From the NCBI GenBank assembly GCA_001275005.1, contig JWZX01002322.1:1-38223 (forward strand): a stretch of 38,223 nt of DNA, given 5' to 3'. The notes under the pieces were generated by a model. That model saw only the letters and a program-made list of their open reading frames with translations. It did no database searches and had not been told where the DNA came from. Source of the stretch: Chrysochromulina tobinii (Eukaryota). A program made the position numbers and the translations under genes. Numbering within the stretch: the first letter of the stretch is position 1; each line of letters begins with the position of its first letter. Shown here piece by piece: positions 6,010 to 33,460 of this stretch.

Positions 6010-6047
<38 letters not shown>

Positions 6048-8444
6048 GCCGCCGCCGCCTCCTCCAGGCCACTCTGCGCCGGCGCCGCCTGCCATCTCGG
6101 AAGCGAGTCCGCTCCTCGGGGCGGCAGCCGCATGCGGGGTGCGCGTGTGAGGCTCCCCCAGTGACGCACGCGCGGCACCGCCGCCGCCCAACACGGCGCC
6201 CAAGCTCGAGCGCGCCGCCTTGAGCACAGGCCGTTCGGACGCCATCCCCGCCGCCAGCACGCGCAGCGCAGACGGAGGCAGCCGCTCCCGCAGCCGCGCG
6301 CCCCTCGGCGGCCACCGGCCCTCGAAGGCGAGGAAGGCGGCGCGAGCGGCGGTGCGCACCTGTGGGGAGAGGAGCGGGCGTCGTGGTGAGCACGTGCATG
6401 CATCGCAGAGGAAGGCGGCGCGAGCGGCGGTGCGCACCTCGGAGCCAGCATCGGTGAGCGCCTTAGTGAGCATCGGCTCGACGTCGGCGAGGTAGTCGTC
6501 GACGCCGGGCGCTGTGAAGGTGGCGAGGATCACCTCGAGATACAGGGCGCAGCGCGCGCGCAGCGGCGGGCCGCTGTCCGACGCGGAGACGCCCGCGAGG
6601 ATGGATGGGAGGATCGCGGGAGATTTGACGAAGTGCAGCAGCTGCCGAATGCACTGGTCCGCCGCGTCGGCGATGACGGCCACGGTGACGCGCAACACAC
6701 GCACGAGCGCGGGCATCAGGTCGATGGCACTCTCCCGGAACGAAGGGCCGAGCACGCGCGCGCCCTCCGCGATCACGTCACACGCGAGCTTGACGCACTT
6801 GGACCGAAGGTCCGTGAGCTGCAGCGAGAGAGGCTCGACCATGTGCGTGTGGAAGAGCAGCCCGAACGTGGGAAGCCGCGCCGCGCTGCCGAGCAGGAGC
6901 CCGTGGACGCGCCGCATCGCTGCCGCGCGCTCCTGCCACGCGCCGTCCTGGCGCAGCGGCCGGCGCAGCTCGCGCGCGAGCTCGCGCAGCTCGCGCGTCG
7001 CCTCCTCCGTCGAGCCGACCCGCACGGGCGATGGCGGATGCGTGTACTCGCCCTCCGCCGCCGCGAGCGACTTGCGCCGGCTGGTCGCGGGCGCGCCATG
7101 TGGAGCACTTGCATGCGCGCTAGCCGCGTCGGGGCGGGAGGGCGCGCCGATCGAGTGGCGGCGAGCGGCCGACGGCGGCGCCACCGACGAGGGCTGCGGC
7201 ACCGGCAGCGGCGGTGGCTCGTCCCGAACGTCGTCCCGAGCGTCCCAGTCGCCCCAGCCCGCCGCCGGTGAGAGGCCGGCGCCGCCCATGTGCAACGTCC
7301 CCAGCGGCGGCAGCTCGGCGCTCTCCGCTGGCACGGGCGGCGGAGCGGACAAGGCGTGAGGGTGGAAGGGGTGATGTGCGCCCAACACGGCGCCAGTGGC
7401 CGCATAGGGCTGTGCGGCATCGACGGTAGCCGCGAGGGCCGCCGCCATCGTCTGCGAGAGAGTAGCGCCGCTGCCCCCAGGCAAGCTCTGCCTCGATGGC
7501 AGCGGCGTCGAGGGCGCAGAGAGCGTGCTCGGGGCGCCGTGGGGCGCGTAGCGCGGCGTGGCGTGGCCGCTGCCCTCGCCACCGCCACCCCGACCACCTC
7601 GCGATGGCGGCGGCGGCGGCGGCGCAGGCGGCGGCGGCGGCGGCGGGTAGGCCACATGAAGCGGCGGCAGGTAGGGTGCGACGCCGCGATCATGCTCATC
7701 GAGACGCGCGAGCACGAGGCGCATCGCGCCGCGTGGCACGTCTACCGGCGCCGCCGCCGCGGTCAGCTGTTCACGGAACATGGGGATGCCGGTGGCATGC
7801 ACCTCTTGCAGCAACGCGAGGGCCGCCTGCGCCGGGAGCGAGGCGGCGTCGTCGAGCAGCCTGAGGATAGTCGGCAGCTCCTTGATGCAGGCGGTGGGCA
7901 GCTCCATGCCAGGCGGCGGGTCGCGTTGGTGCAAGGCGTGCGTGAGCAGCAGCAGCACCGCCTCGCGCACGCGCACGCTCCGGCCGAGCACCGCCTTCGA
8001 GAGCATCGCCGGCACAACGACCGACGCGCGCACGACGGTGAGCAGCTCAAGCAGCGCGCGCGCTGCGAGCGTGCGCACGCCCATATCATTGTCGGCGAGC
8101 CGCTCCGCCAGGTGCGGCACTACTTGATCGAGCGATGAGCGCAGCGCGCTGCCACACTTGTGCAGCAGCGCCGGAAGCGGCCGCAGCACATTCTGCCGCA
8201 CGAGCACACTTCCCGCCGTGCGGTGGTGCGTGAGTGCAGAGAGGATGGAATCGAGCTCCTGCGCACGCGAGAGCAGCAGCGGGGCTGTCAGCAGCAGCCG
8301 GCACCCCGGGAACCGGCGCACCCGGCGCACCTTGGGGCTGGGAACGCTGAATTCATTGCGCTCGAGCAGGGCCAGCCCGCGCTCGCGCTGCTCCGGAACC
8401 TTGGAATTTATGAGCGACATGACGGCTGTCAGGTTGGTCGACAT
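2616..8444 (-). CDS. CLASP: CLASP-family TOG/HEAT microtubule-binding protein with long low-complexity linker and C-terminal coiled coil; exons 8444-8331, 8258-6438, 6359-2616 (~1892 aa after splicing)
   Basis: An N-terminal HEAT array (LAERLADNDMGVR, VRVREAVL) is followed by a CLASP TOG2-like domain (WQERAAAMRRVHGLL; LTDLRSKCVKLAC; LRARCALYL; DAGSEVRTAARAAF...WP). Two in-frame, stop-free GT-AG introns (72 and 78 nt) are translated through in the 1942-aa ORF track. Confidence 0.8.
4584..4646. repeat. 27-nt tandem repeat x2.3 in CLASP exon (ELPVTVHVA)
   Basis: cacgggcagctcagccacgtgcacagt at 4584 and 4611, partial at 4638. Confidence 0.9.
5110..5211. repeat. 21-nt perfect tandem repeat x4.9 in CLASP exon (EVGARTG)
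   Basis: cccgtgcgagctccaacctcg at 5110, 5131, 5152, 5173, partial at 5194. Confidence 0.95.
6360..6437 (-). mobile_element. Introner-like intron A (78 nt): 30-nt copy of next exon plus 48-nt shared element
   Basis: Minus strand reads GAG|GTGCGCACCGCCGCTCGCGCCGCCTTCCTC-TGCGATGCATGCACGTGCTCACCACGACGCCCGCTCCTCTCCCCACAG|GTGCGCACCGCC. Removal restores the HEAT motif DAGSEVRTAARAAFLAF. Confidence 0.85.
8259..8330 (-). other. Ordinary 72-nt spliceosomal intron in CLASP (in frame, no stop)
   Basis: AAG|GTGCGC donor, CTGAC branch motif, GCGCAG|GAG acceptor. Confidence 0.75.
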
Positions 8445-8553
8445 GGTGGCGGGCCGTCAATGAGAGCGGAGAGTGAGCCACGACTGGTGTGCCATCATCT
8501 TTGCGTAGAAGCGCCTCGCGGGCACAGCTACCGGGCACAGCTACCGGTCGTAC
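8445..8553. promoter_or_regulatory. Putative bidirectional promoter/5' UTR interval between CLASP and filamin-repeat genes
   Basis: Only 109 nt separate the divergent ATGs. Contains a 13-nt tandem duplication gggcacagctacc (8520-8545). Confidence 0.5.
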
Positions 8554-11500
8554 ATGATGTCGGGTTGGGTCGCTGGGACCCCTGTCCAACCCTTCAGTGA
8601 GCTGCTCGACCGCATCGAAGACCTTCTTGGAGAGGATCGTGGGAGCGTCCGGGACAGCTGTGCGACGCAAGTGTTCAGCTATAGCCAGCCGCCGAGCCGG
8701 CAATCGCACCGTACTCCCCCGCCTCCGCCTCCGCCACCGCCCTCTCAGCCCAACTCACGGAGTTGGGCGGCGCCAGTGGCCACGCCAGCGCCACGCAACC
8801 AGCCGCCGCTGACGCCTCGAAACAAGCCGCCCTCAAAGCCTACGCCCGCGCCGTCCCACCCGCCTGCCGCTGCAGCTCCGACCACCACGCCGCGATGGCA
8901 GCCTCCTCCAGTGCCTCCAGCTCCTCTGACTGCAGCAGCACCGCCGTCACGACCGCCGCCGCCGCCGCCGCCGCCGCCACCGGCGCCTCCACTCACGCCC
9001 TTGGTCACGCACGGCCTGACCTCCCACCGCACCTCCGTGGCGTTCGGTGGCGCGCTCGAGCGTTGCTACGTGCACCGACCGTCGTTCGTGACGGTGCAGG
9101 CGCGCGACGCCTCGGGCGTCAACTGCCGCGTGGGCGGCGACAACTTCAGCGTGAAGCTGCGCGGGCCGATCAAGGACCTGGTCGCGAGCGTGCACGACCG
9201 CGACGACGGCACGTACGTCGCCGAGTTCACGGCGCCCGTGACGGGCGAGTACGCGCTTCTCGTGCTGCTCGACGGCCGTCACATCCACGGCTCGCCTTTT
9301 GTGCTCCGCGTTGGATCCGGCGCGGCGCATGGACCGAGCTGCGTGCTGCTCGAGGCGGCGGGCGAGAAGGGCGGCTTTCCTTCTCGTGCCCACGACGGCG
9401 TCGCGCCCTCGTCCGCACCGCTCACAAGCCCCCGCCCGCCGCTCGTTGCGGGGGTTGAGATGCGATTCGTGCTTGAGGCCCACGACGAGCGCGGCGGGCG
9501 GATCACACATGGGGGCGAGCATGTGCAGGCGTGGCTGCAGCCGGCGCCCGACGCGCAGCCCGCGGCGGTCGCGTCGCTCGTTGGTGGGCCGCACGCGCGC
9601 GCGCCGCCCGAGCTAGCCATCGACGACCGTGGCGACGGCACGTACCTGGTTCGGCTGCGCGTGTACGTGGCAGGCCCGTACGAATTACACGTGCTGCTTG
9701 GCGCGCGTGCGGCGGAGGAGCGCATCGGGGGCACGCCGCTCGCGCTGCGCGTGGTGCCCGGTCCGGCGTGCGCGCCCGCGACGACGCTCCACGTGCTCTC
9801 GCCCTCGGGCGTGCCGATGCCGCACGGCACGCCCTTTGCGCCCGTTCACGCGGGCGTGGAGACGTCCTTCATGCTGCTCGCGAACGACTCGTACGGCAAC
9901 GCCTGCGGGCGCGGCGGCGGGCGCTTCGAGATGGCGGTGGAGCACAGCACGAGCGCGGACGCGCGGGATGACTTTTTCGTGGCGACCGATCTCGTCGATC
10001 ACGCCGATGGCCGTTACAGCGGCAGCCTGCGCGCGGGACGCGCGGGCGAGGCGTTGCTTCGAGTGACCCTCGATGGCGCGCCGATAGGGACGCCATTCAT
10101 CGTGCCGATCGTGCCAGGCCCGACGTGCGCCGCGTGCTGCCGCGTGCGCGTCGCGCGGGCGTCGCTCGACGCCCACGCGGATCCACACCGATGGGCCGCG
10201 CTGCATGCATCGGCGCCGTTGGGCAAGGGAGCCGCGCTGGGGTGCCCACCACAACGCGTTGGCCAGCCGGCCGGCGCTGGAAGAGGGTTTGGAGCCGCGG
10301 GCATGTCGCCCTCGGCGCCGCTTCCACAGCTCACGATGGGTGTGGGCGAGACGGCGGAGGCGCTCATCGAGGCGTACGATGCGTACGGGAACCCACGCGG
10401 TCGAGGTGCGCTGACGGGCACAGAATGGCCTCTGAATGCCGCTGAGTGCCTCTGAGAGTGCCTCGGGCTGCTCTCTGAGCGCCTCAGAATGCCTCTTGAG
10501 TGCCTCTGGATTGACTCTTGATTGCCCTCTTGAGTGCCGCTGATTGCCTCTTGAGTGCCTCTGAGTGCCTCCTGAGCGCCTCTGACGGCCACCGTCCCTT
10601 CGCCCCCATCATCAGGCGGTGACACGTGGCACCTCGAGATCAACGGCCCTCAAGGTGCGGGTAATGCCCAGCACGGCGCGGGTAATGCCCAGCACGGCGC
10701 GGGCGGTGCCCAGCACGGCGCGGGCGCGTCCCACTCGATCCTCGATCGTGGCGATGGCACCTACGTACTGAGCCTCACCTGTCGTGTGGCCGGCGAGCAC
10801 GTCGCCCACGTGGGCCTATGGAGCTCTCCGAGGGCACCCGCCGAGGACGCTGCCGTCTCGGGCCGGCTGGACCCAGGTACGCTGCCGTACCAGCTGCAGC
10901 CAGTCACGCCCGTCGCACGGGCGGCGCCCAACACGGCGCCGGCAGTTTCGGCGCAGCCGCAGCTCCACTGGTTACCTCACGCACCGCTGCGCTTGCTGGC
11001 GACGCCCCAGGCGCTCACAGCTGCATGCACGATCGTGTGGCCGCGCCCGCCGCCGCCGGTGCAGGCAGGCGAGCCGATCGAGCTGCTGCTGCGTGCGACG
11101 GATCCATGGGGCAATCCGGTCGGCTCTCTGGGCGGCGCGACCGCGGTGCTCGAGAGGCTCGCAGATCTCGATCTGCAGCCACTCACCCTGCTGCAGCCGC
11201 GGCGCGCCGTCCTGGGCGCGGGCACGGCCGCCGAGGACGATGCGGACGACCTCGCGCGCCGTTACATCCCCTGCGAGCTGCACCGCGGGGGCTTCGTCCG
11301 GGAAGGCGCCCGGGACGGCGCCCGGGACGGCGCCCGGGACGGCGCCCGGGACGGCGTCCGGGACGGCGCCCTGGACGACGACACGTACTTCGAACCGGAG
11401 TCGAGCGCGCGTTCGATAGGCTGGAGTGAGCTGCGGCTGCGCGCCTTCCCCACACGCGTCGGTCTCTACCTGCCGCTCCTCACCGTGCATGGTCAGCCCT

Positions 11501-11783
11501 TCAGGCCGCCCACGATTGAGTATGCGATGCATGTGCGCGCTCACCACGACGCCCCCTCCGCGATGCATGCACGTGCTCACCACGACGCCCGCTCCTCTCC
11601 CCACAGGTGCGCGCTGGCCCGCCCGCCGCGCAGCGCTCGTACGCGCGCGGCCCGGCGCTGCGCGGCGGCGAGGTCGGGCAGCTCTGCCGATTTCGGGTCG
11701 CTGTGTGCGATGCGTACGGCAACCCACTGCGGGGCTGTGCAGCAGCGGTGCGGGCAACCGTGCGACACGTGCCCCACGGACAA

Positions 11784-11828
<45 letters not shown>

Positions 11829-13612
11829 AGGGGCTCTATGGGCGCCGCCCGCGGCGCAACGGCTGCCTCGCCAGACCGTCGCGACCGGCAGAGCGCCCGA
11901 GCAGCCGACTACGCCGCGGCGGCGGGCGCAGCCGGCGTCTTGCCCTCGTCGCCCGCGTCGCACGTGTCGGCCTGCTTGGGTGCGATCTCGAGCTGGCAAG
12001 CCGTGCGGCACGCCGAGGAGGCGGGCGCCATAGCGAGCGCTCAGGAGCGCGCGATGGCAAACGCGGCGGCGGAGGACGAGGCGTGCATGCGCGGCGCTGA
12101 CCGTGATGAAGACGACGAGGCGGCGTGGGGCGAGAGCGCGCACGAGGTGTGCGTCGTCACCGTGGACGACGCCGAAGAGGATGAGGCGCCCGAGACGGCG
12201 GGATGGGCGCGTGCCACATTTATGCCGCGCCGTGCCGGCACCCACGTGATCCGCGCGTACGTGGGCGGCCTCGAGATCAGCGGCTCCCCCTCGTGCATGC
12301 AAGTGCTCACCACGACGCCCCCTCCACTTCCCCACAGGTACGTGGGCGGCCTCGAGATCAGCGGCTCCCCCTTCGTAACGGCATTCAGCGCGGGCTCTGT
12401 GGCTGCGGCGCGCTGCGCCGCGCGCGGCGAAGGGCTGCGCACGGCCACCGTCGGCGCAGCCGCGCTGGTCGAGGTATGTTCGACGCGAGCGGGAACCAAA
12501 TTAGGAACATTCTCCAACGTGGCGATGCATGCAAGTGCTCACCACGACGCCCGCTCCTCTCCCCACAGGTGTGTTCGTTCGACGCGAGCGGGAACATGCT
12601 CCGACGTGGCGATGGGGGCGCCAGTGTCTTCGTCGCGTCCCTCCAACGGCCGGACGGCGCCCCTGTCGACTGCACGTCGCGGTGCTTCGACCGCGATGAT
12701 GGCAGCTACCGACTCGCATACACGACGTTCACGGCTGGTGCGATGCAGCTGTCGATCAGCTGTCGCGGCTGCCCCGTGCGTGGCTCCCCCTTTGACGTTG
12801 TCGTCGCGCCTGGGCGCGCACATGCGCCGCACTGCCGTGTCGTGGGCTCGGGCGCTTCCTTTGCTAGGCTCGCGCCAACGGTCGCCACGTTCACCCTCGT
12901 GTGCTACGACCGTTGGCGCAACCGGTGCGTGGCGGGCGGCGAGCGTGTGGTCGTCAAGGCAGCAGGCCCCACGCACCCCATCTTGAGCGTGCTCGACCTC
13001 TCCGATGGCACGTACCAGGTCTGCGCGCGCTACTCGCTCTCGGGCATCTATCTGCTGACGGTGGGCCTCGGCGCAAGGGCGGAGGAGCGCATGCTCGTCC
13101 CCGGCTCGCCGCTCACCGTGTACGTCGGCCTGCAGCTTGCGGAGCAGTATCTGGAGCGATGGCTCGACGAGGCGCCACGTGTCAAGTCGAGCCTCGCCGC
13201 CGAGGTTGCGGCAAGGGTGGGCGCCGGCGGCGCCGGTGGCGGCAGCGGTGGCGGCAGCGGTGGCGGCGGTCTGCTGGCACTCACGAGGCTCGGACAGTGG
13301 CGGCACGATCGCGAGGCACTGCTTGCGCACACGCTGCGTGCGTGGAAGCACTTTGTCGGGCGGCGGCTGCTCGATCGCATGGTGGCAGGCTCCGTCCCTG
13401 CCGGCTCGCCTCGAGTCGTCACCCACAAGGGGGCTCCGGTGCTTGCCCCGGGGCCGCCTTCCCAGCAGCAGCAGCAGCAGCAGCAGCCGAAGCGGCTCTC
13501 GCACCGTCCTCACCTCCACCCGCACGCCCTGACGACCACCTCGAGACTCAGCACGCCGAGATCGCCAAGGTCAGTGGCTGCGGGCTCGGCACGGCAGATT
13601 TCTTCACGCTAA
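8554..13612 (+). CDS. Filamin/ABP280 Ig-like repeat protein (~8 repeats) with Pro-rich N-terminus; exons 8554-10405, 10616-11532, 11607-12256, 12338-12473, 12569-13612 (~1532 aa)
   Basis: Recurrent filamin motifs (D-x-x-GN...GG; D-x-x-DGTY; GxY-x-L-x-V; GSPFxVxV-x-PG) run across ORFs 8554, 10786, 11607 and 12203. Four GT-AG introns join them in frame (sum 4599 nt). The donor of intron 2 is less certain. Confidence 0.85.
10406..10615 (+). repeat. 210-nt intron filled with degenerate 10-11-nt TGAGTGCCTC(T) satellite
   Basis: GAG|GTGCGC donor; roughly 15 units of CTGA(G/A/T)TGCCT from ~10422-10590; CTGAC at 10582-10586; ATCAG|GC acceptor. Splicing restores the filamin motif YGNPRGRGGDTW. Confidence 0.85.
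11305..11372. repeat. 12-nt coding tandem repeat (DGAR)x~5
   Basis: ggcgcccgggac units within the filamin gene exon. Confidence 0.9.
11533..11606 (+). mobile_element. Introner-like intron B (~74 nt) with a degenerate plus an intact element copy in tandem
   Basis: The element at 11560-11606 is identical over 47 nt to the copy in CLASP, with a degenerate copy at 11523-11559. The acceptor CAG|GTGCGC at 11606 switches to the filamin frame. Proposed donor CAT|GTGCGCGCT duplicates the first 9 nt of the next exon. Confidence 0.7.
12257..12337 (+). mobile_element. Introner-like intron C (81 nt): perfect 35-nt copy of next exon plus 46-nt element variant
   Basis: GC|GTACGTGGGCGGCCTCGAGATCAGCGGCTCCCCCT-CGTGCATGCAAGTGCTCACCACGACGCCCCCTCCACTTCCCCACAG|GTACGTGGGCGG. 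Removal gives IRAYVGGLEISGSPFVT. Confidence 0.85.
12474..12568 (+). mobile_element. Introner-like intron D (95 nt): decayed copy of next exon plus 47-nt element
   Basis: GAG|GTATGT donor. The element at 12522-12568 has 1 mismatch to copies A/B. Splicing is required to join the two filamin frames (LVE|VCSFDASGN). Confidence 0.88.
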
Positions 13613-14083
13613 TTTACGTGAGCTTAGCTGATAGAATGGTTAGCACCGGCCAATACGATAGAGGGGTTAGAGCACATATATCGGAATCTGTACGTGTCGT
13701 GTGCCACAGTGTTCAAAGCCTATTAGGTAATTACCTGAGTAGTGGGAAGGTCCCCCTAGGCGTCAAAAAAGTGCGCCGCTGTGGGCGTGACTTAGTTTGC
13801 GGCATGGTTTGCGGACGAGAAGCACTCGGACTCGCGCTCGCACGTCTCGCTCTCTCTCCTCTCACGACCATGCACACGGCTAACGCGCGCGTACATGTAA
13901 GGGGCCTGTGGGGCCTGCTGCCGAAGTGTTCCGTATCTGTCAGTCGTCAGCGCTGCCCGCGGCATGCCTGCGAGTGGAGCGCTGGCAACCATGTTGATGT
14001 GTCCGCAAGTGTAACCTATAAGGGTCGCGTTTCGCTGCAGAGTGACCTTCGGCTTCGCTTTCGAAGCCTGTGGCCTCCTCGAA

Positions 14084-16117
14084 TCATGCGGACAACATGA
14101 AGGGCCATGTGCGGTGTGTGGTCACCGATTCGCCTGCCTTCCACATGCCCTTGTGCAAGACGGAGCCGTCGGCAGACCGCAGCGATCCGCGCCCCTCATG
14201 CGCATCGGCCTTCCACTCGCCCTCGTAGACATCGCCGTCGGCATACCGCATCGTGCCGCGCCCGTTCTTCTCATCAGCTTTCCACTCGCCCTCGTAGATG
14301 GCGCCGTCGGCGTACCGCTGCATGCCGCGCCCATTCTTCTGATCAGCCAACCACTCGCCCTCATACACGTCGCCATCGGCCTCCCGCAGCGTGCCATGCC
14401 CACCAAACTTGTCCTCCTTCCACTCGCCCTCGTAGACATCGCCGTCGGCGTACCGCTGCATGCCGCGCCCGTGCCTGTCATCAGCCTTCCACTCGCCCTC
14501 ATACATGTCGCCATCGGCCTCCCGCAGCGTGCCATGCCCACCGAACGTATTCTCCTTCCACTCGCCCTCGTAGACATCGCCGTCGGCGTACCGCATCGTG
14601 CCGCGCCCGTGCCTGTCATCAGCCTTCCACTCGCCCTCGTAGACGGCGCCGTCGGAATACCGCATCGTGCCGCGCCCATTCCTTTCCCCAGCCTTAAACT
14701 CGCCGTCATAGACATCGCCGTCGGGGCACCGGTAGACGCCGTGCCCCTCTGTCTGGCCATCTTTCCACTCGCCCTCATATATGGTGCCGTCGCCATACCG
14801 CATCGTGCCGCGCCCCTCCTCCTCACCAGCCGCATTGCGTTCACCATCGTACTCGGAAAGCATCTCACCACCAAAACCGCTCATCGTGTTGGCAATCCTG
14901 GTAATATACTCATCATACAGGTCCTTGACGATCGTCTTGTCGCCCTTGCCCGTGAAGAAGGCGTTTCGGATGTTCAACCGCACGCGCTCGATCCGCGGGC
15001 CCAGGCCTTCGCTGCCGCCGTACTGCTCGCTCGACGGCTCCGGCGCCTCGCCGTCGATCTCGACCAGCTTGGGCGGCAGCCTATCGAGGATCGTCTTCAG
15101 ACCCGGTAAATACGCGGCTTGCGCGATGCCTTCGGTGCTCACGGCACTCTCGAGCGTCGTCCACCCGCGCGCGCCGTACGGCCGCGGGTTGTGGTACGTG
15201 AACACGGCCGTCGCGCCCTCAAACAGCCCCGCCGCCACCGCCCGCTCCGCGTCCGCATGTGAGGCGAAGCGCGCACGCCACAAGAAGCCTTGCTTGTCGT
15301 GGCGCAGGCTGTCGAGCTTGCCGTAGGCCTCGAGTGCACAGCGCACCGCCTCGGCCGTGAGGGCCTTCGTCATGCCGGGGGGAGAGATGGCCTCGAACAG
15401 TTTCTGCTCCTTGGCGCTCAGCTTGTCGTACTCCGCTTGGCACAGGTCATAGTCCGTGCCGCGCTTGTGGTAACGAATGCCCACGATCGGGTCCATGCCC
15501 GAGCGACTGCAAATGTGGTCCGGGTGGGCCGCCTTGTCGGCCGCGTATTCGCGCACCACCACCTCGCCGTCAAGGCTCGCCGGACGTGAGGGCACAGAGC
15601 GGTGGCGAATGACCATTGTTCCGAGGACGGAGGCGTACATGTCGGCCATCACCTCGAGCGCTTGGGCGAAAACCTTGGCGTCGCTCTCTGAGCGCGGCTC
15701 CTGCGGCAGGCTGCAAGCGTCCCAAAAGACGGCCTGCACGTGCGCGCCCAGCCCGCTGCGCAGGAAGCGGCTGATGGCACGCAGGTACTCGCCCGATGGA
15801 TCCGACCCGTCGGGCGTGTCCCAACCATACGTGAGGGAGGAGATCTCACGCTTGTTGCTGCGCAGCAGCTTGATCGCATCCTTGGGCGTGTGGAAGATGC
15901 GGATTCCCTCGGAGCGCTCGCGCGCCTCAAGGTCCTGCCGGCGCGCAATCTTGGTGCCGATGGTGCCGTCCCGGATGCGGCCGGCGATGATCAGCTTGAT
16001 GGCGCCCGAGCGGAGGGTATCGTAGAGGTGATCGTCGAGCGCCATTAGAAGCGAAATCGCCTCGTGGTCGCGGACGCGCACACGCGCCACCGCCGTCTTG
16101 CTCGCTGAGCACCCCAT
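14084..16117 (-). CDS. N-acylated (MGC) protein with HET-like domain, inserted ZZ-like zinc finger and RRM-like segment, and ~10 MORN repeats (677 aa)
   Basis: ATG at 16117 gives MGCSASK (myristoylation/palmitoylation-type). HET-like motifs: LTYGW..DPSG, FWDACSLPQ, ALEVMADMY, YGARGWTTLE. ZZ-like: HPDHICSRSGMDPIVGIRYHKRGTDYDLC. Ten 23-aa YEGEW-K-x5-GxG repeats. The MORN call is firm; HET, ZZ and RRM are by motif recognition. Confidence 0.8.
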   Translation of the reverse strand: MGCSASKTAVARVRVRDHEAISLLMALDDHLYDTLRSGAIKLIIAGRIRDGTIGTKIARRQDLEARERSEGIRIFHTPKDAIKLLRSNKREISSLTYGWDTPDGSDPSGEYLRAISRFLRSGLGAHVQAVFWDACSLPQEPRSESDAKVFAQALEVMADMYASVLGTMVIRHRSVPSRPASLDGEVVVREYAADKAAHPDHICSRSGMDPIVGIRYHKRGTDYDLCQAEYDKLSAKEQKLFEAISPPGMTKALTAEAVRCALEAYGKLDSLRHDKQGFLWRARFASHADAERAVAAGLFEGATAVFTYHNPRPYGARGWTTLESAVSTEGIAQAAYLPGLKTILDRLPPKLVEIDGEAPEPSSEQYGGSEGLGPRIERVRLNIRNAFFTGKGDKTIVKDLYDEYITRIANTMSGFGGEMLSEYDGERNAAGEEEGRGTMRYGDGTIYEGEWKDGQTEGHGVYRCPDGDVYDGEFKAGERNGRGTMRYSDGAVYEGEWKADDRHGRGTMRYADGDVYEGEWKENTFGGHGTLREADGDMYEGEWKADDRHGRGMQRYADGDVYEGEWKEDKFGGHGTLREADGDVYEGEWLADQKNGRGMQRYADGAIYEGEWKADEKNGRGTMRYADGDVYEGEWKADAHEGRGSLRSADGSVLHKGMWKAGESVTTHRTWPFMLSA

Positions 16118-16294
16118 GCTCGACGCGCCCAATGCAGCGCCATCTTCACGTGTGCTTCAACTCTGAGTCTCAGACTCACGGCAGAGGGGTGCCTTCACAC
16201 ACCCCGGTACAGTACCGTTCAGGAGAAATTCGCGTGTAAGAAGGGTGCTCCCGTTGTGGCCGCCCCCAGCGCGCCAACTCGCGCCCGCCCGATC

Positions 16295-17626: not shown

Positions 17627-17810
17627 TCATACCGTCGAGAGGCCGCCGCGGCGCTTTCGCCTGTAAAGGATTGAATTTTTCGTGAACTTCCCTTCCCAAA
17701 TCTTCAGAAGTATTTCACGTCCGGCCGGACGACCGCGCCGGGACCGCGCACGCGGAAAAGTTAAAGTAACGGCCCCCCCTGGCTGCAATCTTGCGCCTCC
17801 TCGCGCTCTT

Positions 17811-20153
17811 TCACACGACCTCTCTTCGGCAGTGGGCTGTGCGCAGCACTAGACACGGCTTTGCCCAAAGTTCAGCTAATCTTGCCACGACTTCTCTGCT
17901 GCGGTTATGCAGATGCCCGGTATTCACTCCGTCTGCATCATGCTGACAACCATCCACGAGTTCGGCATGCAGCATGTCAGTCGCACGCATGTGAAAGGTG
18001 CTCACGAAGCCGCCATGTTCGCGCGTCGGCACGGCCGAGGTCTTGGCCACGCAGAATTTCGAGGATCCAGAACACAGGAAGCGGAACGCACCAGCCGCGC
18101 ACGACTTGGCAAACGGACCCGCGTGGGGCTCTAGAGCTAGAGCGTCACCATCCTCCCATGTGAGCATGCGGCCAGTCCCATGCCCCTGTACCCCGGTCGC
18201 TTCCGCTGAGGGCTGCCACGAAGAGCCCACGGGCGGCGGCACTGCTTCCCGAGAAGCATCTTCAGCTTGACGGTGGCCGTGCAGCCTGGTGAACCCAGCT
18301 TCAGCTTCGAGCATGGCTGTCTGTACTTGGTGCCCAGCAGCAGTTGGGTGCATGGTAGCGCTCGAGGTGGCGGAACGCCCATCAAAGCGAGCAGGGGGCG
18401 TGACCCATACCTCTGGCATCTGGTGCCGAGCGCGAGGGTCGACTCGCACTGTTCCAGCTTCCTGTGCTTCTCCATGTGCACGCATAAGCGCCAGCCGTCG
18501 CGAGCGCTGGGCACTGCTCTCCCAGCTCTCTGCACTCCCATCGCCACGCCCGGGGCCACGCCCGGGTTCCTCCGAGCCTCCGGGCCTAGCGAGCGAGTCC
18601 AGACGAAATGAAGCCGATGCTGCTTCGTCGACCACCTGACGAGCGTGCAGCGCCGCTTCTGGCGGCTCGCACGCCTCGAGAGATGAGGAAGGGACAGAGA
18701 GCGTCACCACATTCGAGGCCAAGGCAAAGTGCAAGTCGGGCAGCAGGTTTGCCCAAGCGATCTCGGTCGGTCCTCGCACGCGATGGCGCAAGAAGACGCC
18801 CCAGTGGAAGCCGGCCGACGTGTGTTGTGGCGGCTCGGCCCACGGATTTGGCGCAGGCCGATGGGCGCTCAGCTGGGCCGTGATGAGCGTGTTCGTCTCC
18901 TGAAGACAGGCGGGCGATGCCATATCAGCCATCTCGTCGGCGAGTTCGGAGTCTGTGGATAGCAGCCACCACGCCAGCACGTGGTGCACTCGGCCTGCTT
19001 CCGTCACGCTCCTAGGATCACACGTGCCGCCGCTTGTGCCAGGCGCGCGTCGGAATCTGGGCGGTTCGTTTTCAAGTGTCATGTCAATGGAGGTCGTCGC
19101 GGAGGTGGACGACGCGCTAGTAGATGGCTCGATGGGGCTGGTTGCTACGTTGCTCGCCTGGCAGCCAGTCGCGGCGGGCGAGGCAAGCGTCTCCAGTGCG
19201 TCGCCTCCGCACACGCCCTGCTTCCATCGGCTCTCCTGCCTATGCTCGCCAGCGTCGCTCGACGACGAATGCGTCTCGCAATGCTCCGGAAGCACGACCA
19301 CACGCCGCGGCGTTGGCGAGCTACGTCTGCGCTCGCTCGCACTGCGCAGCCAGTAGATGACGGGCACGTCCGTTCGGAACACGATGTCCAAGCGCGCGAG
19401 GAAGACCGCCGCATAGCGAGTCCCTAGAGAGAGTTCGCGCTGCCGCTTGAGCAGCAGCGCACGTCGCATAGAGAGCAGTGCACTTGTCGTCTGAGCGCAT
19501 TGGGACGCGGAGAGTTGGCGTTGGAAGAGGGAGCAGTTGCTGACGAGCAAGCTGTACGGGCATGGCTCGTGTGTCCAAGCAACTGGGAGATGTAACGCGT
19601 CCAGCAGGGTGGCCCGCGCTGAGTTCGGGTGCTCACTCCATGAGTGGAGCACAATCTCGACGCCGCTCGAAAACCACCGCGTGGCTGGCATGCACACGTG
19701 CATGCGCAACGAAAAGGCGGCGACGCTGAGCCGCGAGAGCTCCTCAGCCTCGCGCCGAGCGTCCAGAAGGTGACCGCGCCGGCGTGTCATTGTAGCGTCA
19801 TGATCGTCAAAGCGAGCGTCAAAGAGCACGACGATCAGTGAGCCGTTTTGGCTGTGTTGCTCCGGCCACTCTTTTGTCTCCTCCCACGTTGCACGACGGC
19901 GTCGATCAGCGAGCGCGTCGACTTGAATTCTTTCGCGCAATGCATTGCCTTCTGCACGTAACGCGGCAACTTTACTCGGGTGATGCGGTGGCTGTGGCGG
20001 AGGCGGAGGCGGCGGATTCGACGGCGGCGCATCCGGTGGGCCTGGCGGTGGTGGAGGGTTCGGCGGGGGATTTGGCGGCGGCATAAATCGGCGTGGGGCA
20101 GAGATGAGTCGTAGGAGAAGTAGGAGGCATCCAAGAAAGTGTTGGCGCCACAT
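17811..20153 (-). CDS. Secreted or type II membrane protein, possibly glycosyltransferase-like (780 aa)
   Basis: MWRQHFLGCLLLLLRLISA signal/anchor, then a Pro-rich stem, then motifs VEIVLHSWS and YAAVFLARLDIVF reminiscent of uncharacterised GT-like families. Function is tentative. Confidence 0.55.
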   Translation of the reverse strand: MWRQHFLGCLLLLLRLISAPRRFMPPPNPPPNPPPPPGPPDAPPSNPPPPPPPQPPHHPSKVAALRAEGNALRERIQVDALADRRRRATWEETKEWPEQHSQNGSLIVVLFDARFDDHDATMTRRRGHLLDARREAEELSRLSVAAFSLRMHVCMPATRWFSSGVEIVLHSWSEHPNSARATLLDALHLPVAWTHEPCPYSLLVSNCSLFQRQLSASQCAQTTSALLSMRRALLLKRQRELSLGTRYAAVFLARLDIVFRTDVPVIYWLRSASERRRSSPTPRRVVVLPEHCETHSSSSDAGEHRQESRWKQGVCGGDALETLASPAATGCQASNVATSPIEPSTSASSTSATTSIDMTLENEPPRFRRAPGTSGGTCDPRSVTEAGRVHHVLAWWLLSTDSELADEMADMASPACLQETNTLITAQLSAHRPAPNPWAEPPQHTSAGFHWGVFLRHRVRGPTEIAWANLLPDLHFALASNVVTLSVPSSSLEACEPPEAALHARQVVDEAASASFRLDSLARPGGSEEPGRGPGRGDGSAESWESSAQRSRRLALMRAHGEAQEAGTVRVDPRARHQMPEVWVTPPARFDGRSATSSATMHPTAAGHQVQTAMLEAEAGFTRLHGHRQAEDASREAVPPPVGSSWQPSAEATGVQGHGTGRMLTWEDGDALALEPHAGPFAKSCAAGAFRFLCSGSSKFCVAKTSAVPTREHGGFVSTFHMRATDMLHAELVDGCQHDADGVNTGHLHNRSREVVARLAELWAKPCLVLRTAHCRREVV

Positions 20154-20405
20154 CGGTGCGCGCGGCGGAGTCAAAGAACGCGGGGTGTGTGTTCGTGAAG
20201 TTGAGGACTTTGCGAGCCGGTGTCGTGTGGCGTTTCAACTCAATGCATGCGTACATGTAGGTAGGGTCCCTTCGACTGGATCACTCGATCTTTCATGTGG
20301 GGTTCGGAAAACTTGTGCCTCTCCAGGCCCTGAGGCCCGTCTTGCGGGCGGTGAGCTATTTCAGCTTTGAGCTTACAGATGTTTGCACAGATTGGCACAC
20401 ACAGT

Positions 20406-21734
20406 TCACAGCGGCATGTATGCCACGTCAGTCGCAGTACACCCGTCTCGTGTGTATCCTCGGCCACGTGGCCGCGCCCGCACTTGTCGCGCTAGCACTG
20501 CAAGGGCGAGCAACAGTAGTAGTGCGGCACCGAGTAGGTACATAGGGTGCAAGGGGCTCACACCAAACGATGGCATCGGGGGAGACAAAGAGCGAGACAC
20601 CACTGGTGGCGTCACCACTGGTGTTGTCGGATCGTGTAGTGTAGCGAGTGGCGTAACCACCGCTCGATTTGAAAGGCCTTGTCTTAGATCGACCTCGTAT
20701 GCTGCAGCCATTCGTTCGCATGCTGAGTGTGGCTCGCTTGGGCCACCCGCTTGCTTGCAGTCCATACCAGTGTACAGAAACGGCGACCCATAGCCGCCAT
20801 CGGTGTCGCAACGCCGCTTGTCGCCATCAGCCTCCACCTCGGCCGCAAGCAGCACCTTCCGGTCAGCCGCCGCGGCAGCTGCAATGGCTGCCGGCCCGTC
20901 CGACTGTGTGATGCAGAAAGGGTCGTGGCAAGTGCGATTGAGCACTTTGGCAGCCACTGTCGCTGTTGGCGCACCGTCGGCGCGGCCGCAAGGCCCAAAA
21001 AGCAGCCTTCGCAAGTGCGCGTACACAATGCACGCGAGGAGCGCTGAGCCGTCGGCGTTGAGGTGCACGGCATCCGTGCTGAAGAGGTTCGCCGCCCTGG
21101 GCACTGCCGCATGCGCGAGCGCTCTACGTGGCATGCTGCCGGCGCTGGCAGCCAGCTTCGTGTGCACGTCGCTGATCACTACAGCTGCCTCTTGGAGCAA
21201 AGCAGGGTCAATGCCCATGATGGGCCTTGCACTCAGCAGCGGCGGCGGCGTCAGCAGAAGGACCAGCTTGAGCTGTGGTTGGTGCTCAAATGCACCGATA
21301 ATGGAGGCGAGACCTGTGCGCAAGCCATGGCCGTGCTCGCGCCCCCATGAGCTGCATGGACCCGCACTCCAAAAGTGAGCCTTCGCATCATTCGTGCCGA
21401 GCATCAGGACCACGACGTGGGGAGCGAAGCGCAAGGCTGCGGAATACTCGGGTACGGACTCATACGGTGGCCCGTTTCCGCCGGTGTGATTGCAAGCGGT
21501 AGCGCCACCGTGCCCAAAGTTACGAACCACGGCGCGCTGGGTTGCTGCCAACCGTGCGAGCAGAGCAGGATACGAGCCACGCTTACGCAGCGCGTACTGT
21601 GAAGGTCTTAGCCTCTGAAAAGGCACACGATTGGCAGGAATATGCTCGTGCAGCCCGTCGCCGCGTGTCAGCGAGTCACCGATGCACGCTATGCGAATGA
21701 GATCATGGCTTTCTGGGCATCGCCGATTTGCCAT
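20406..21734 (-). CDS. SGNH/GDSL-family hydrolase with C-terminal membrane anchor (442 aa)
   Basis: Blocks I IACIGDSLT, II NFGHGG, III LGTND, V DAVH. Hydrophobic YLLGAALLLLLALAVL near the C-terminus. Confidence 0.9.
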   Translation of the reverse strand: MANRRCPESHDLIRIACIGDSLTRGDGLHEHIPANRVPFQRLRPSQYALRKRGSYPALLARLAATQRAVVRNFGHGGATACNHTGGNGPPYESVPEYSAALRFAPHVVVLMLGTNDAKAHFWSAGPCSSWGREHGHGLRTGLASIIGAFEHQPQLKLVLLLTPPPLLSARPIMGIDPALLQEAAVVISDVHTKLAASAGSMPRRALAHAAVPRAANLFSTDAVHLNADGSALLACIVYAHLRRLLFGPCGRADGAPTATVAAKVLNRTCHDPFCITQSDGPAAIAAAAAADRKVLLAAEVEADGDKRRCDTDGGYGSPFLYTGMDCKQAGGPSEPHSACERMAAAYEVDLRQGLSNRAVVTPLATLHDPTTPVVTPPVVSRSLSPPMPSFGVSPLHPMYLLGAALLLLLALAVLARQVRARPRGRGYTRDGCTATDVAYMPL

Positions 21735-22035
21735 CGCCGATTGCGATCGCTCCTAGCGTCGAGGCGACGCCGATTGCCCTCGTGAATTTCCTCAAGTTCG
21801 TGTGAAATTGAATCGGCGGGACCTCAGTCGTCCCGCAGTCTCGCTCGGGTTTCCATTGGACAAACAGTCCAGGGCCATTGCGGAATTTCCACGGCTCCGA
21901 ATTCCGCAACGCGCCATCACCGCGGGATATCGCCAGCGGCCGCACTGCCGCCGCGGCCGCCCACGCAACCAGCCCCTAGTCAATCGGGTTCAAGCGTGCG
22001 CGAGCAGTGACGCCATCGATGTGCCAAACTGGGCC

Positions 22036-22224
22036 ATGGACATCGGTCAATGGTTGCCGGAGTGGCTGGTTTACGGATTGTTAGCCTGGCTGGTGTATGG
22101 CTCGGTGATGACCCTCGCAAACCCTCACTGCATGATGAGGAGATGCTGTCAGAGGACCACAATAGAATCATTGGTAGACTCAGAGGCCATTGCGCTCGTG
22201 CCCCAAACCTGTCAAAGGGCCTAA
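22036..22224 (+). CDS. Possible small membrane peptide (62 aa)
   Basis: GCCATGG start context; hydrophobic WLPEWLVYGLLAWLVYGSVMTL followed by Cys-rich HCMMRRCC; divergent from the SGNH gene. No recognisable homology. Confidence 0.25.
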   Translation: MDIGQWLPEWLVYGLLAWLVYGSVMTLANPHCMMRRCCQRTTIESLVDSEAIALVPQTCQRA

Positions 22225-22628
22225 GGTTGGCACTCTAGCTGCGCGACGTCATTATGATCTGTGGATAATGTCATGGAATGGCGTGCGAGAGAGCCGAGAC
22301 AGTGTATAGTGTGTAACTCATTGAGTTGTTAAGAAGTTTGCTAGTGTACACGACGCTTGAGTTCTACAGTTCGCCATTATCACCTCGCAACCGAAGCGTG
22401 TCGGTGACATTCGCGCACGGTCCGGTCTTGGGTCTACGTTACCGGTCCTACGTCCGAGTCGCCCCCGACGTGACAATCCAATCCTATCTACTCAGTCTCG
22501 TCCTCTCGTCGCTCCCCCAAAGTTCCGTCCTAGAGCGCTAGAGGCGGACGGGGCGGCCTGGAAACCTCGCTACTCCGGCGGCTACTCACCTATTCGTCCG
22601 CCGCATCCATATCGCATATACGCGCGTC

Positions 22629-22647
22629 CTGGTGAGCACTTGCTTGC
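22629..22647 (-). mobile_element. Truncated fifth copy of the introner-like element between duplicated gene-end sequences
   Basis: Minus strand GCAAGCAAGTGCTCACCAG is 17/19 to element core GCATGCAAGTGCTCACCAC. It is flanked by imperfect direct repeats 22676-22707 and 22590-22628. Confidence 0.55.
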
Positions 22648-22675
22648 GGGGCAGGAGTGGTTCGTCACAACACCA

Positions 22676-24892
22676 CTACTCGTCCGCCGCATCCATATGC
22701 GCGCGTCGCGTCGGCGCGCGCCGTGGACTCGGCGCGAGAAGATCAATCGTCTCGTGTAGCTGCTCGTGGATGAGCGACGCCTGCTGCGCAGCCTGCTCCT
22801 TGTTCCACAACGCACGCAGCTCGGCTGCTCGCACATCTTCTTCGAGACGCGAGCTGACCTCCTCCGCGCGGCGCGCTCGCGCAGCCTCCAGCGCCGCTTG
22901 CTGCTCCGCGGCCCCGAGCCGCATGCGCAGCTCGAGTGTCTCCTTGGAGGCCGCCAGCGCCGCTTGGGTCGCCGCGTGCTCGAGCTCGGCCACACGGCAC
23001 TCACTCGCGTCGGCCCGCGCGTCGGCGGTTACGCGGGCAGCTTCGAGCTCCTCGGTGCGTGCAGAAAGCGTCGCCTGGCTCTGCTGCAGCTCCGCGCTCA
23101 GACGCTCCGCCAGGCGCGTCAACTCACTGAGCTGCTGTTGGAGGGCCTCTCGTTGGGAAGCCTCGGCCGCCGCAGCTGCCTCGCGCCGCGCCGCCACCGC
23201 CACGTGGCGCCACGCGCCGAAGGACGTCGCTGCGGTGAGCCGCGCGTCGCCGTAGGCCACCGCGTGCGCCCAGTGCGTCCGTGCGCGACTGGCGACCGCC
23301 GCGCGTCGCACGAGGCCAGCGGAGGCATCGGCGGCGGCCTGTCGGGCGCGATCGAGATCCGCACTTAGTGCGCGGTGCCGTCGGCGGCTGACAAGGTGTG
23401 ACCAGTGACTCAAGCTCGCCTGCAGGTCCGCCTGCTGCCGGAGGCGCCACTCGCGTTCGGCAAAGCTGTCGGCACCGGCGTAGCGCGCGTGCTCGCTCCT
23501 GGTGAACGCCCGCTCGAGATAGTCGATCTCCCCACAGAGCAGCCCGCGCGCCTCGACGGACGTCCGTAGACGCTCGATCGACGCACGCGCGCTGAGCGCA
23601 CGCTGCCGCTCGGAGGCAGCTGCATCGGCGTGCGCGCTCTCGGCGCGCGCCTCGGCCAGCGCGCCCGCATGCGCCGCCGCCTCGCGCACCGCCGCCTCTA
23701 GCCTTCCACGCAGCTCGCTCTCCGCCGCTGCGGCAGAGCCCGCCATCTGCGCACGCACGCGGCGCGCCGTCGCGAGCACCGCCCAGAAGCGCAGGGTGGC
23801 CCCAAGGCAACGCCCAAGACGACGCTGGGCCGCCGCCACGCGGCGCGCCGTCGCGAGCACCGCCCAGAAGCGCAGGGTGGCCCCAAGACGACGCAGGGCC
23901 GCCGCGGCGGCGAAGACGGCGCCGAGCTGCTCGAGTACCTGGCTGTGCCGCGCGACACGCCGCTCGCTCAAGACGACACTTTCGAGCCTCTGCTCCTCCT
24001 CGGCCGCTGCTTTGGCAAGAGCCTCGGCGCGCTGCTGGCGGGTAGCGAGCACGAGCAGCTGCGCCTCGGAGGCCTCACGCTGCGCGACACGCAGCTGCGC
24101 GGCTATCGCCTCGGCCGCCGAGCGCGCGTTCGCTTCGCTCTGCGTGCGCTCCGCCGCCATCTCGGCAGCCGCCTGGAGGCGCGCGGCTCGATGTCTCGCC
24201 GTGGCCGCAAACAGGCGCCACGTGCCGAGCAGGTGCATCGCGGCGCGCTGCTCACGACGCGCCGCGAGCGCCATGGAGAATGTGTCGCACACGACATCGT
24301 GCATGCGCTCGAGCTTCGAGGCAACCTGTGCGCTCGCTTGCTGCAGCTGCTCGTCGACCGTCGCGTGCGTCTGCTGCTTCTGCGCCTCTGCCGCCGCGTG
24401 CGCCCGCTGCACCTCCGCCTCCGCCGCGGCGCGCACCTCGTCCAAGCGCGCCTCGGCCGCGGCGCGCGCCTCCCGCGCCTCCGCCTCGGCCGCGGCGCGT
24501 GCCTCCTCGGCACGGCGACGGCGGCGGCCTTCCTCGAAGGCAAGCCGCTCGGCCTCTTTGCGACGTGCCTCCTCTGCCTCGAGCCTCGCGGACGTCTCCG
24601 CAGTCAACTCGTCTGCCGTGCGCAGATGCGCGATAAGTTCCGTGTTACGGTCATCTTCGCTGTCGAGGCCTGCAACAACGTGCCGCCAGTGGCACAGAGC
24701 GGCAAGTGCAGAGCCCCACACAGCGCGAGAGAATACGCCGATTACCTTGTCGGCCCCGAGCATGAGCTGTAGGGTATTTGCGCGCTCAATAATGGCATCA
24801 CGCTCCGAGCTGGCACGGAAGAGGGCTTCGTCCTTTTCTGCAATCGCGTCCCGCGCCTTGGTCACCTCGGCGACCAAGGCCGCCACCGCCAT
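22676..24892 (-). CDS. Ala-rich coiled-coil protein with spaced Trp motifs (Sfi1/centrin-binding-like), 738 aa
   Basis: Long heptad-rich ORF with repeated motifs ALCHWRH, LLGTWRL, TLRFWAV (x2), SLSHWSH, SFGAWRH resembling the Sfi1 [FL]xxW[KR] repeat end. Family assignment is tentative. Confidence 0.65.
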   Translation of the reverse strand: MAVAALVAEVTKARDAIAEKDEALFRASSERDAIIERANTLQLMLGADKVIGVFSRAVWGSALAALCHWRHVVAGLDSEDDRNTELIAHLRTADELTAETSARLEAEEARRKEAERLAFEEGRRRRRAEEARAAAEAEAREARAAAEARLDEVRAAAEAEVQRAHAAAEAQKQQTHATVDEQLQQASAQVASKLERMHDVVCDTFSMALAARREQRAAMHLLGTWRLFAATARHRAARLQAAAEMAAERTQSEANARSAAEAIAAQLRVAQREASEAQLLVLATRQQRAEALAKAAAEEEQRLESVVLSERRVARHSQVLEQLGAVFAAAAALRRLGATLRFWAVLATARRVAAAQRRLGRCLGATLRFWAVLATARRVRAQMAGSAAAAESELRGRLEAAVREAAAHAGALAEARAESAHADAAASERQRALSARASIERLRTSVEARGLLCGEIDYLERAFTRSEHARYAGADSFAEREWRLRQQADLQASLSHWSHLVSRRRHRALSADLDRARQAAADASAGLVRRAAVASRARTHWAHAVAYGDARLTAATSFGAWRHVAVAARREAAAAAEASQREALQQQLSELTRLAERLSAELQQSQATLSARTEELEAARVTADARADASECRVAELEHAATQAALAASKETLELRMRLGAAEQQAALEAARARRAEEVSSRLEEDVRAAELRALWNKEQAAQQASLIHEQLHETIDLLAPSPRRAPTRRAHMDAADE

Positions 24893-33405: not shown

Positions 33406-33460
33406 GCGGCCTTACTCGTCGTCACGTAGATTGGCCCTTCGGCACGGCACTTGGCCGCCA

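What the first reader, a model, noticed from the sequence alone, without database searches (positions are those of the whole stretch)
6330..22707. Introner-like family: a ~47-nt 3' splice-site cassette flanked by long exon duplications builds new introns
SEEN: the same cassette GCGATGCATGCA(C/A)GTGCTCACCACGACGCCCGCTCCTCTCCCCACAG ends four introns: 6360-6406 minus in CLASP, and 11560-11606, 12292-12337 and 12522-12568 plus in the filamin gene. Copies A and B are identical over 47 nt, D has 1 mismatch, C has about 4 differences, and a truncated copy sits at 22629-22647. Every copy is sense to its host although the hosts lie on opposite strands. The cassette holds a branch-like CTCAC 27-28 nt before the end, a pyrimidine tract and CAG. 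The rest of each intron is a direct copy of the first 30, 9, 35 or ~46 nt of the following exon, and those exons all begin with donor-like GTRYGY (GTGCGC, GTGCGC, GTACGT, GTGTGT). So [duplicate][cassette] is spliced out and the protein is restored. KNOWN: introner elements in Micromonas and Aureococcus are DNA transposons that carry one splice site and co-opt the other from short fixed-length target-site duplications. INFERENCE: this family has no terminal inverted repeats, no poly(A) tail and long variable duplications, which points to a different mechanism such as staggered-break repair, target-primed reverse transcription or template switching. An alternative is abortive cDNA-templated overwriting of the 5' half of pre-existing related introns. 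I cannot tell whether it has been described.
Basis: partly seen in the sequence, partly recalled or inferred. Interest (0 to 1): 0.92.

Follow-up and report, generated by a model that had tools for sequence, protein, structure and literature searches.

The report
Introns that copy themselves from introns
In a freshwater alga, a large family of short introns is built from a 15-53 base copy of the neighbouring exon plus a shared splice-signal piece, some are present in one strain and missing in another, and they likely spread by DNA repair copying from earlier family introns rather than by a transposase.

Summary
Real and genome-wide. The host is Chrysochromulina tobinii. A metagenome scan gave 284 distinct contexts of a 25-nt branch-point core; 121 of 162 acceptor-bearing sites carry a duplication of the next exon (0.85% in random pairs; 15-53 nt; introns 64-98 nt). 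Of 28 sites seen in a second DNA source, 4 are empty new sites. One cDNA-like contig lacks such introns precisely; PRP8, IFT and the window's filamin frames need their removal. Best reading (0.5): staggered-break or template-switch repair fills a long duplication with a piece of an earlier intron, and selection keeps spliceable products. An RNA route stays open (0.3). No long parent element was seen in about 1% of the genome. A published introner screen lists zero families for this species; its both-ends filter would likely miss these.

The parts
6360..6437 (-). Intron A in the CLASP gene, 78 nt: 30-nt exon copy (6437-6408), junction, 25-nt core (6401-6377), pyrimidine tail, CAG
   Evidence: homologues P0003 and P0004 lack the 26 extra residues exactly
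6330..6359 (-). Exon start duplicated into intron A
   Evidence: 30 of 30 identical
10406..10615 (+). Predicted family-2-type intron (about 10-nt repeats, ends CATCAG), 210 nt, in the filamin-repeat gene
   Evidence: removal keeps the frame; no RNA joint seen
11524..11533 (+). Exon end matching the private 5' extension shared by copies A, B, D; likely its source
   Evidence: direction inferred
11533..11606 (+). Intron B, 74 nt: 9-nt exon copy, truncated core, full core (11565-11589), tail, CAG
   Evidence: frame needs its removal
12257..12337 (+). Intron C, 81 nt: 35-nt exon copy (12257-12291), core (12295-12319), tail, CAG
   Evidence: retention would add 27 residues with a repeat
12338..12372 (+). 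Exon start duplicated into intron C
   Evidence: 35 of 35 identical
12474..12568 (+). Intron D, 95 nt: imperfect exon copy with indels, 6-nt microhomology into the cassette, core (12527-12551), tail, CAG
   Evidence: removal of all four introns gives one 1531-residue frame
22590..22702 (-). Mirror-type copy at a stop codon: repeat (22702-22676), filler, diverged core (22647-22623), repeat (22615-22590)
   Evidence: splicing untested
2616..8420 (-). CLASP-like host gene frame
   Evidence: PF12348, source name clip-associating protein 1-like
8557..13612 (+). Filamin-repeat host gene
   Evidence: PF00630 hits at 9031-9900 and 12569-13600; frame

Best explanation
These are young spliceosomal introns, each made of a long duplication of the target exon plus a piece shared with other family introns, and they are likely produced by microhomology-guided repair or template switching that copies from an earlier family intron, often a nearby one, with no transposase. 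Inferred steps: (1) a staggered break or backward template switch duplicates 15-53 nt of the target; (2) the gap is filled by copying part or all of an existing family intron (DNA or unspliced transcript), joined through 1-9 nt of microhomology; (3) in exons only products that splice out cleanly survive: 3' pieces (branch core, tail, AG) next to a duplication that begins with a donor-like GT, 5' pieces next to a duplication that ends in AG, or whole introns with almost no duplication; (4) each survivor is a new template, so the family spreads as a chain. Shown: architecture, sense orientation in recognisable genes, strain polymorphism, copying between loci, local bias, precise absence from one cDNA-like contig. 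Not shown: the enzyme, whether the template is DNA or RNA, and why these sequences rather than ordinary introns are copied.
For: Architecture: 121 of 162 sites with a duplication score of 24 or more against 0.85% of 2000 random pairs; 114 anchored ones have 15-53 nt duplications, 64-98 nt introns, lengths mod 3 of 41/31/42. Length filter: donor-to-branch distance never under 37 nt, duplication and carried 5' stretch anticorrelated (rho -0.49, n 114; partly built into the measure). Recency: 28 sites with an allele in a second DNA source, 23 shared, 4 empty new sites, 1 tandem-number difference (alignments); 37 of 114 duplications still perfect. Copy from copy: L089's intron matches the L067:8386 intron of another gene including that gene's exon-derived 5' half, and is absent from L017 and L081; L047's intron starts with a stretch (26 of 26 nt) that abuts a core in an ODC gene of L006; a 99-nt compound intron recurs 2 kb away in L007. 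Local bias within the culture-like contigs: near-identical tail plus shared 5' extension in 9 of 103 pairs under 1.5 kb, 7 of 140 at 1.5-5 kb, 1 of 101 beyond, 23 of 8551 between loci, including opposite-strand pairs. Both ends vary: mirror form and tail-less cores flanked by repeats, an antisense core inside an intron (L020), multi-segment fillers (B). Orientation: Pfam hits at E 1e-5 or better in 23 of 92 sense flanks (one low-complexity) and 0 of 112 antisense flanks. Splicing: L066 equals L024 over 1239 matched bases with six gaps, among them a 72-nt family-1 intron, one of two tandem 86-nt copies and a 74-nt hybrid; 85-nt and 79-nt introns interrupt PRP8 and an IFT140/172-type gene, whose profile runs 61-148 then 149-334 across the intron. 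Repair of staggered nicks giving tandem duplications with filler from nearby DNA is described for rice (PMC7407515, passages).
Against: The core's 5' edge is sharp (position -1 47% T, position +1 98% G) and 173 of 260 anchors keep the whole 5' half, which blind repair does not predict. Ordinary introns exist yet family 1 and 2 dominate the duplicated-intron calls (126 of 173, with redundant calls), so template choice is sequence-biased for an unexplained reason. Likely parent-daughter pairs do not share more exon-start bases than random pairs (p 0.79), so extended 3' microhomology is not supported. Several copy pairs are on different contigs, so copying is not only local. No joint for A-D was among the 15 of 19 joints shown, and RNA-library contigs run unspliced through B and into C; no family-1 joint was among the 15 of 58 shown for L068; L066 retains one tandem copy and is called cDNA only from its missing introns. 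The L089 copy would shift the frame if spliced at its GT. Empty alleles could be losses by slippage between the repeats. Local similarity could partly be later gene conversion.
Confidence: 0.5

Rival explanations
1. RNA route: an excised family intron is joined by its 3' end to a splice-junction-like target (partial reverse splicing or target priming), reverse transcribed from the AG towards the 5' end, usually stopping just past the branch region, and the 5' junction is closed by error-prone end joining that duplicates the exon.
For: 3' junction precise and 5' junction variable; whole GT-to-AG copies with little duplication; explains why introns are the templates, the sense orientation and the local bias; the same asymmetry is reported for linear group II intron retrohoming with polymerase theta (PMC3280974, abstract only); cassette-bearing contigs pile up in RNA libraries.
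Against: The mirror form has a precise 5' and variable 3' end; tail-less and antisense cores occur; fillers include pieces of the target's own upstream exon (B); some whole copies share 5 exon bases before the donor with their partner (L007; L024/L053), which an excised intron would not supply. No reverse transcriptase was identified (not testable here).
Confidence: 0.3
2. A short non-autonomous transposon or SINE-like element, mobilised from a master copy by an enzyme encoded elsewhere, with unusually long target-site duplications.
For: Sharp, conserved 25-nt core (1.5% divergence over 22 positions, biased by the query); duplication-element-duplication geometry; a longer about 70-nt form carrying both splice sites recurs at several loci.
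Against: No inverted ends, no poly(A), duplication from a few to 53 nt, both ends variable; private variants cluster locally and parent-specific 5' halves are inherited; no core closed a long element among 216 examined, 47 of them without a local duplication; no Rfam match above noise; no unusual fold of the cassette (z 0.12 and 0.93). Only about 0.66 Mb was sampled.
Confidence: 0.1
3. Old introns whose 3' ends were homogenised and whose 5' halves were overwritten with exon sequence.
For: One ODC position carries different 5' halves in L006 versus L009/L061; new units often sit directly after an existing acceptor (for example PRP8); 23 of 28 sites are shared between sources.
Against: Empty genomic alleles whose neighbouring introns are kept; next exons look like donors (GT 161, GC 13 of 194); RNA-confirmed ordinary introns lack the core and the duplication.
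Confidence: 0.07
4. Assembly artefact or unspliced coding insertions.
For: No spliced joint listed for A-D; unspliced contigs in RNA libraries.
Against: Same sites in independent assemblies and wild strains; non-3n inserts in PRP8 and IFT genes; precise absence from L066.
Confidence: 0.03

Closest known systems
[quoted passage not shown]
   Same: Repeated sequence makes many new introns, one site carried and one co-opted, mRNA restored; marine Chrysochromulina genomes also hold introners.
   Different: Those have fixed short duplications (3-9 bp), often inverted ends and end-to-end similarity; here duplications run to 53 nt and make up half the intron, ends vary, and copies inherit parent-specific sequence. 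The Chrysochromulina example in that paper has a 4-bp duplication and carries the 5' site. C. tobinii is listed with 0 families (PMC12130899 supplement file 7).
[quoted passage not shown]
   Same: New introns flanked by direct repeats, read as repair of staggered breaks.
   Different: There the repeats are short and the fillers are not one family; here the filler is a recurring splice-signal piece copied from other introns.
Intron gain by tandem genomic duplication of an AGGT-containing segment (PMC3443670, passages)
   Same: An exon duplication supplies the donor and the coding sequence is restored.
   Different: Here branch site and acceptor come from an inserted shared piece; the base pair before the donor is AG in only 52 (A) and 87 (G) of 114.
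Intron transposition and fungal introner-like or sister introns without duplications (PMC3443670, PMC8469720, passages)
   Same: Whole introns reappear at new sites; repair- or RNA-based copying has been proposed.
   Different: Those are whole, seamless copies with no flanking duplication; here partial copies with long duplications dominate.
Templated insertions and tandem duplications from alternative end joining (PMC7407515, passages); linear group II intron retrohoming (PMC3280974, abstract)
   Same: Junction signatures: microhomology, multi-segment fillers, nearby templates.
   Different: Neither text read here describes a self-propagating family of spliceosomal introns arising this way.

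Membership tests
Introner (functional sense: repeated sequence that creates introns on insertion) | Related sequences at many unrelated genic sites, spliceable, with empty orthologous sites | tested here: met
   284 contexts, many Pfam-distinct genes, 4 empty new sites of 28, cDNA-like L066
Introner (operational screen of PMC9860276) | Similarity between introns reaches both the 5' and the 3' boundary | tested here: not met
   Rule read; in the 114 duplicated copies the 5' half is locus-specific; only a minority of whole copies would pass
DNA-transposon (TIR/MITE) introners | Terminal inverted repeats | tested here: not met
   Core and tail ends are not complementary; no unusual fold of the cassette
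DNA-transposon (TIR/MITE) introners | Fixed short target-site duplication | tested here: not met
   15-53 nt in 114 scored sites, shorter in others
SINE / non-LTR retroposon | Fixed 3' end with poly(A) or simple-repeat tail and 5' truncation only | tested here: not met
   No poly(A); 3'-truncated cores and mirror form occur
SINE / non-LTR retroposon | Autonomous partner with reverse transcriptase sharing the 3' end | tested here: inconclusive
   None among 216 cores in about 0.66-0.9 Mb; whole genome not held
Repair-derived (alt-end-joining / template-switch) insertions | Flanking duplication, junction microhomology, nearby or multi-segment templates | tested here: met
   extended 3' microhomology not met
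Repair-derived (alt-end-joining / template-switch) insertions | Dependence on a repair polymerase such as polymerase theta | not testable with these tools
   needs genetics; presence of the gene in this species was not checked
Known structured RNA | Rfam match | tested here: not met
   two matches at E 1.7 and 2.5, far below gathering scores, in 11400-12700

The most novel reading that the evidence does not exclude
A transposase-free, self-propagating intron: thousands of introns in this alga arise by a chain reaction in which repair duplicates a piece of exon and fills it with a copy of an earlier intron, so that each intron is both product and template and carries a barcode of its parent gene; this would be a major route of intron gain that current introner screens cannot see.
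Probability: 0.45. Interest if true: 0.93.

Novelty: new variant of a known kind. Interest (0 to 1): 0.85.

Why it matters
How new spliceosomal introns arise is a long-standing question, and the current answer leans on transposons. Here a cultured alga shows intron gain that is ongoing (polymorphic between strains) and possibly accounts for a large share of its introns (rough, upward-biased extrapolation of about 9,500-10,600 family-1 cores and 5,700-7,300 family-2 acceptors in 59 Mb, against about 16,777 genes with one intron each on average, PMC4580454 passages). Each copy records its target, its junctions and sometimes its parent, so the mechanism can be read from public genome and RNA data. 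The published screen scored this species as having no introners, which suggests a blind spot for half-copied introns. Gene models in this genome may also be wrong at such sites (the deposited CLASP protein leaves the homologue alignment right at intron A).

Tried and rejected
Whole genome not held; search of records behind the loci for reverse transcriptase or the core was not possible, so the parent-element search rests on fetched flanks only. Viral scan gave one match that lacks the core's 5' half and the tail, treated as chance; L034 and L035 likewise. RNA laying: no joint for A-D or for L068 family-1 introns among the joints shown; all runs are contigs from mixed samples and long flanking repeats may hide joints, so this is not evidence of retention. 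Open-frame test across spliced junctions (81 of 97 open) has no control and is uninformative in GC-rich DNA. Prediction that parent and daughter share exon-start sequence failed. Rfam and folding gave nothing (intron D alone folds at z -2.59, one of six). Earlier-findings index returned nothing. Literature: nine searches and supplement look-ups found no description of this family; the 16-nt core string is absent from the one supplement searched for it (file cut when stored); files 13-14 of PMC12130899, 182 of 214 Chrysochromulina places in the PMC9860276 table, the authors' sequence repository, bioRxiv supplements and subscription papers were not seen. The Emiliania genome paper was not held; my recollection that it reports 10-11 nt repeats enriched in introns is unverified, and PMC2784329 (passages) did not bear on it. 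Rows dropped before counts: 284 contexts to 194 with a tail, 178 with enough flank and at most 4 mismatches, 162 clusters, 114 anchored duplications; outputs were cut in view.

Full report
Observation. The four cassettes and the truncated fifth are at the stated places and far above chance. A, C and B begin with exact copies of 30, 35 and 9 bases of the next exon; D has an imperfect copy and starts at 12474, not 12475. Removing the predicted 210-nt intron at 10406-10615 and B, C, D gives one 1531-residue filamin-repeat frame; removing A makes CLASP collinear with two homologues, which lack exactly the 26 extra residues. A homologue search names the host as Chrysochromulina tobinii. No whole genome was held.

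Family. They hold 284 distinct contexts of a 25-nt core with at most 5 mismatches. The core is 89-100% conserved at all but three positions, has a sharp 5' edge and contains the branch-like CTCAC; 194 contexts continue into a pyrimidine tail and AG, 141 of them ending CCCCACAG, and the next base pair is GT in 161 and GC in 13. After dropping short or diverged rows (178 kept, 162 clusters), 121 clusters show a duplication of the next exon (0.85% in 2000 random pairs; 15 of 160 in a same-locus control that includes tandem copies); 114 are anchored at the exon start, with duplications of 15-53 nt and introns of 64-98 nt, lengths spread over all frames. Flanks give Pfam hits on the sense strand (23 of 92 at E 1e-5) and none on the antisense strand (0 of 112). 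Density away from the selecting hit is 161-180 cores per Mb, an upward-biased figure.

Splicing. L066 matches L024 at all 1239 aligned bases but lacks six segments; one is a 72-nt family intron removed precisely, one is one of two tandem 86-nt copies (the other stays), one a 74-nt hybrid. I call it cDNA from this pattern alone. Non-3n family introns interrupt PRP8 (85 nt) and an IFT140/172-type gene (79 nt; profile 61-148 then 149-334). Against: in mixed-sample RNA contigs no joint for A-D was among 15 of 19 shown, contigs ran unspliced through B and into C, and for L068 only ordinary introns and one family-2 intron showed joints among 15 of 58 shown. Splicing of the window's own four introns is thus inferred from frames, not shown.

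Recency. Of 28 sites covered in a second DNA source, 23 are shared, 4 are empty new sites (L009, L028, L042, L089) and 1 differs in tandem number; neighbouring introns are kept in the empty alleles, so these are genomic. Loss by slippage between the repeats could also make empty alleles. Left and right copies differ at 120 of 2087 bases and 37 of 114 are perfect.

Where the filler comes from. Copies near each other share private tails and 5' extensions, falling with distance within the culture-like set (9/103, 7/140, 1/101, against 23/8551 between loci), also across strands. In the window, the extension before the core occurs only in A, B, D and the partial core, and matches the exon just before B, so B is the likely parent of A and D (direction inferred). 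Whole introns recur in other genes with the parent's exon-derived 5' half: L089 from the L067:8386 type, L047 from an ODC intron type in L006, and a 99-nt compound intron 2 kb apart in L007. A longer form that carries both splice sites joins the core to family-2 repeats. No core ended a long element among 216 examined.

Same build, other pieces. A de novo scan of 660,688 non-redundant bases found 173 calls of donor-from-duplication type (72 core, 53 family 2, 1 both, 47 other) and 100 of the mirror type (48 family 2, 3 core, 2 both, 47 other); calls are redundant and include opposite-strand views. Family 2 is a run of about 10-nt units ending in CTCATCAG or opening with a donor. Tail-less and antisense cores occur inside introns and non-coding stretches.

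Mechanism. The simplest account is duplication of 15-53 target bases at a staggered break or backward switch, filled by a copy of part or all of an earlier family intron, then filtered by selection: sense strand, a donor at the start of the duplication, and at least about 37 nt from donor to branch. Such repair products are known (PMC7407515, passages). It does not explain the sharp core edge or why ordinary introns are not copied, and the predicted extra homology at the 3' junction was not found. An RNA route with a precise 3' and error-prone 5' junction, as in linear group II retrohoming (PMC3280974, abstract), explains those better but the mirror form and flank-derived fillers worse. I put repair copying at 0.5, the RNA route at 0.3, a master element at 0.1, overwritten old introns at 0.07, artefact at 0.03.

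Comparison. It works like an introner that carries the acceptor and co-opts the donor (PMC9860276, passages; bioRxiv 10.1101/2020.10.14.339549, passages) but fails the tests for transposon introners: no inverted ends, no fixed duplication, no end-to-end similarity. The screen requires similarity at both boundaries and lists 0 families for C. tobinii (PMC12130899 supplement); its 15 haptophyte rows give duplication lengths of 2-5 where stated, and one note of 10-bp terminal direct repeats. It also recalls repair-based gain in Daphnia and gain by tandem duplication (PMC3443670, passages), and combines them with intron-to-intron copying. Nine searches found no description; the library lacks subscription papers and some supplements were not seen.

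Verdict. Real, active, large-scale intron gain of an unusual build; new variant of a known kind, with a 0.45 chance that it is a transposase-free chain-copying route. Interest 0.85.

Noticed in passing
L002-L077, e.g. L037:11834, L024:4172, L071:1470; window 10406-10615: Second large family: about 10-nt repeat units plus a CTCATCAG-type acceptor, or a carried donor plus a copy of the upstream exon end; repeat number differs between strains.
   Followed up: partly
L071:8800-9040: In PRP8 a family-2 mirror unit and a family-1 unit sit back to back at one junction, giving a compound intron or a zero-length exon.
   Followed up: partly
L014 minus 7225-7320 and L059:3803-4000: A possible third filler family built from a GTGCGTATACGCA-like unit, with flanking duplications.
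   Followed up: no
L089 versus L017/L081: Polymorphic whole-intron copy in a FAM91 gene that would leave 8 extra bases if spliced at its GT; may be a harmful allele or an assembly error.
   Followed up: partly
L006 versus L009/L061 (ODC gene): The same position carries family introns with different 5' halves in different strains: parallel gain or overwriting.
   Followed up: partly
L012, L020:3779-3980, L024:9950-10125, L047:9944-10200, L070: Head-to-tail arrays of duplication-plus-cassette units; copy number differs between strains and one copy was retained in the cDNA-like L066.
   Followed up: partly
window 2616-8420 minus: The deposited protein P0002 skips the exon after intron A that homologues P0003 and P0004 keep, suggesting a gene-model error at this intron.
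   Followed up: partly
window 14089-14884; 33251-33423; 5081-5232; 11276-11395: Tandem arrays with periods 69 (MORN-like, name recalled), 28, 21 and 12.
   Followed up: no
window 7121-7103 minus: A 14-base match to the core's 5' half in CLASP coding sequence, a possible chance match or relic.
   Followed up: no
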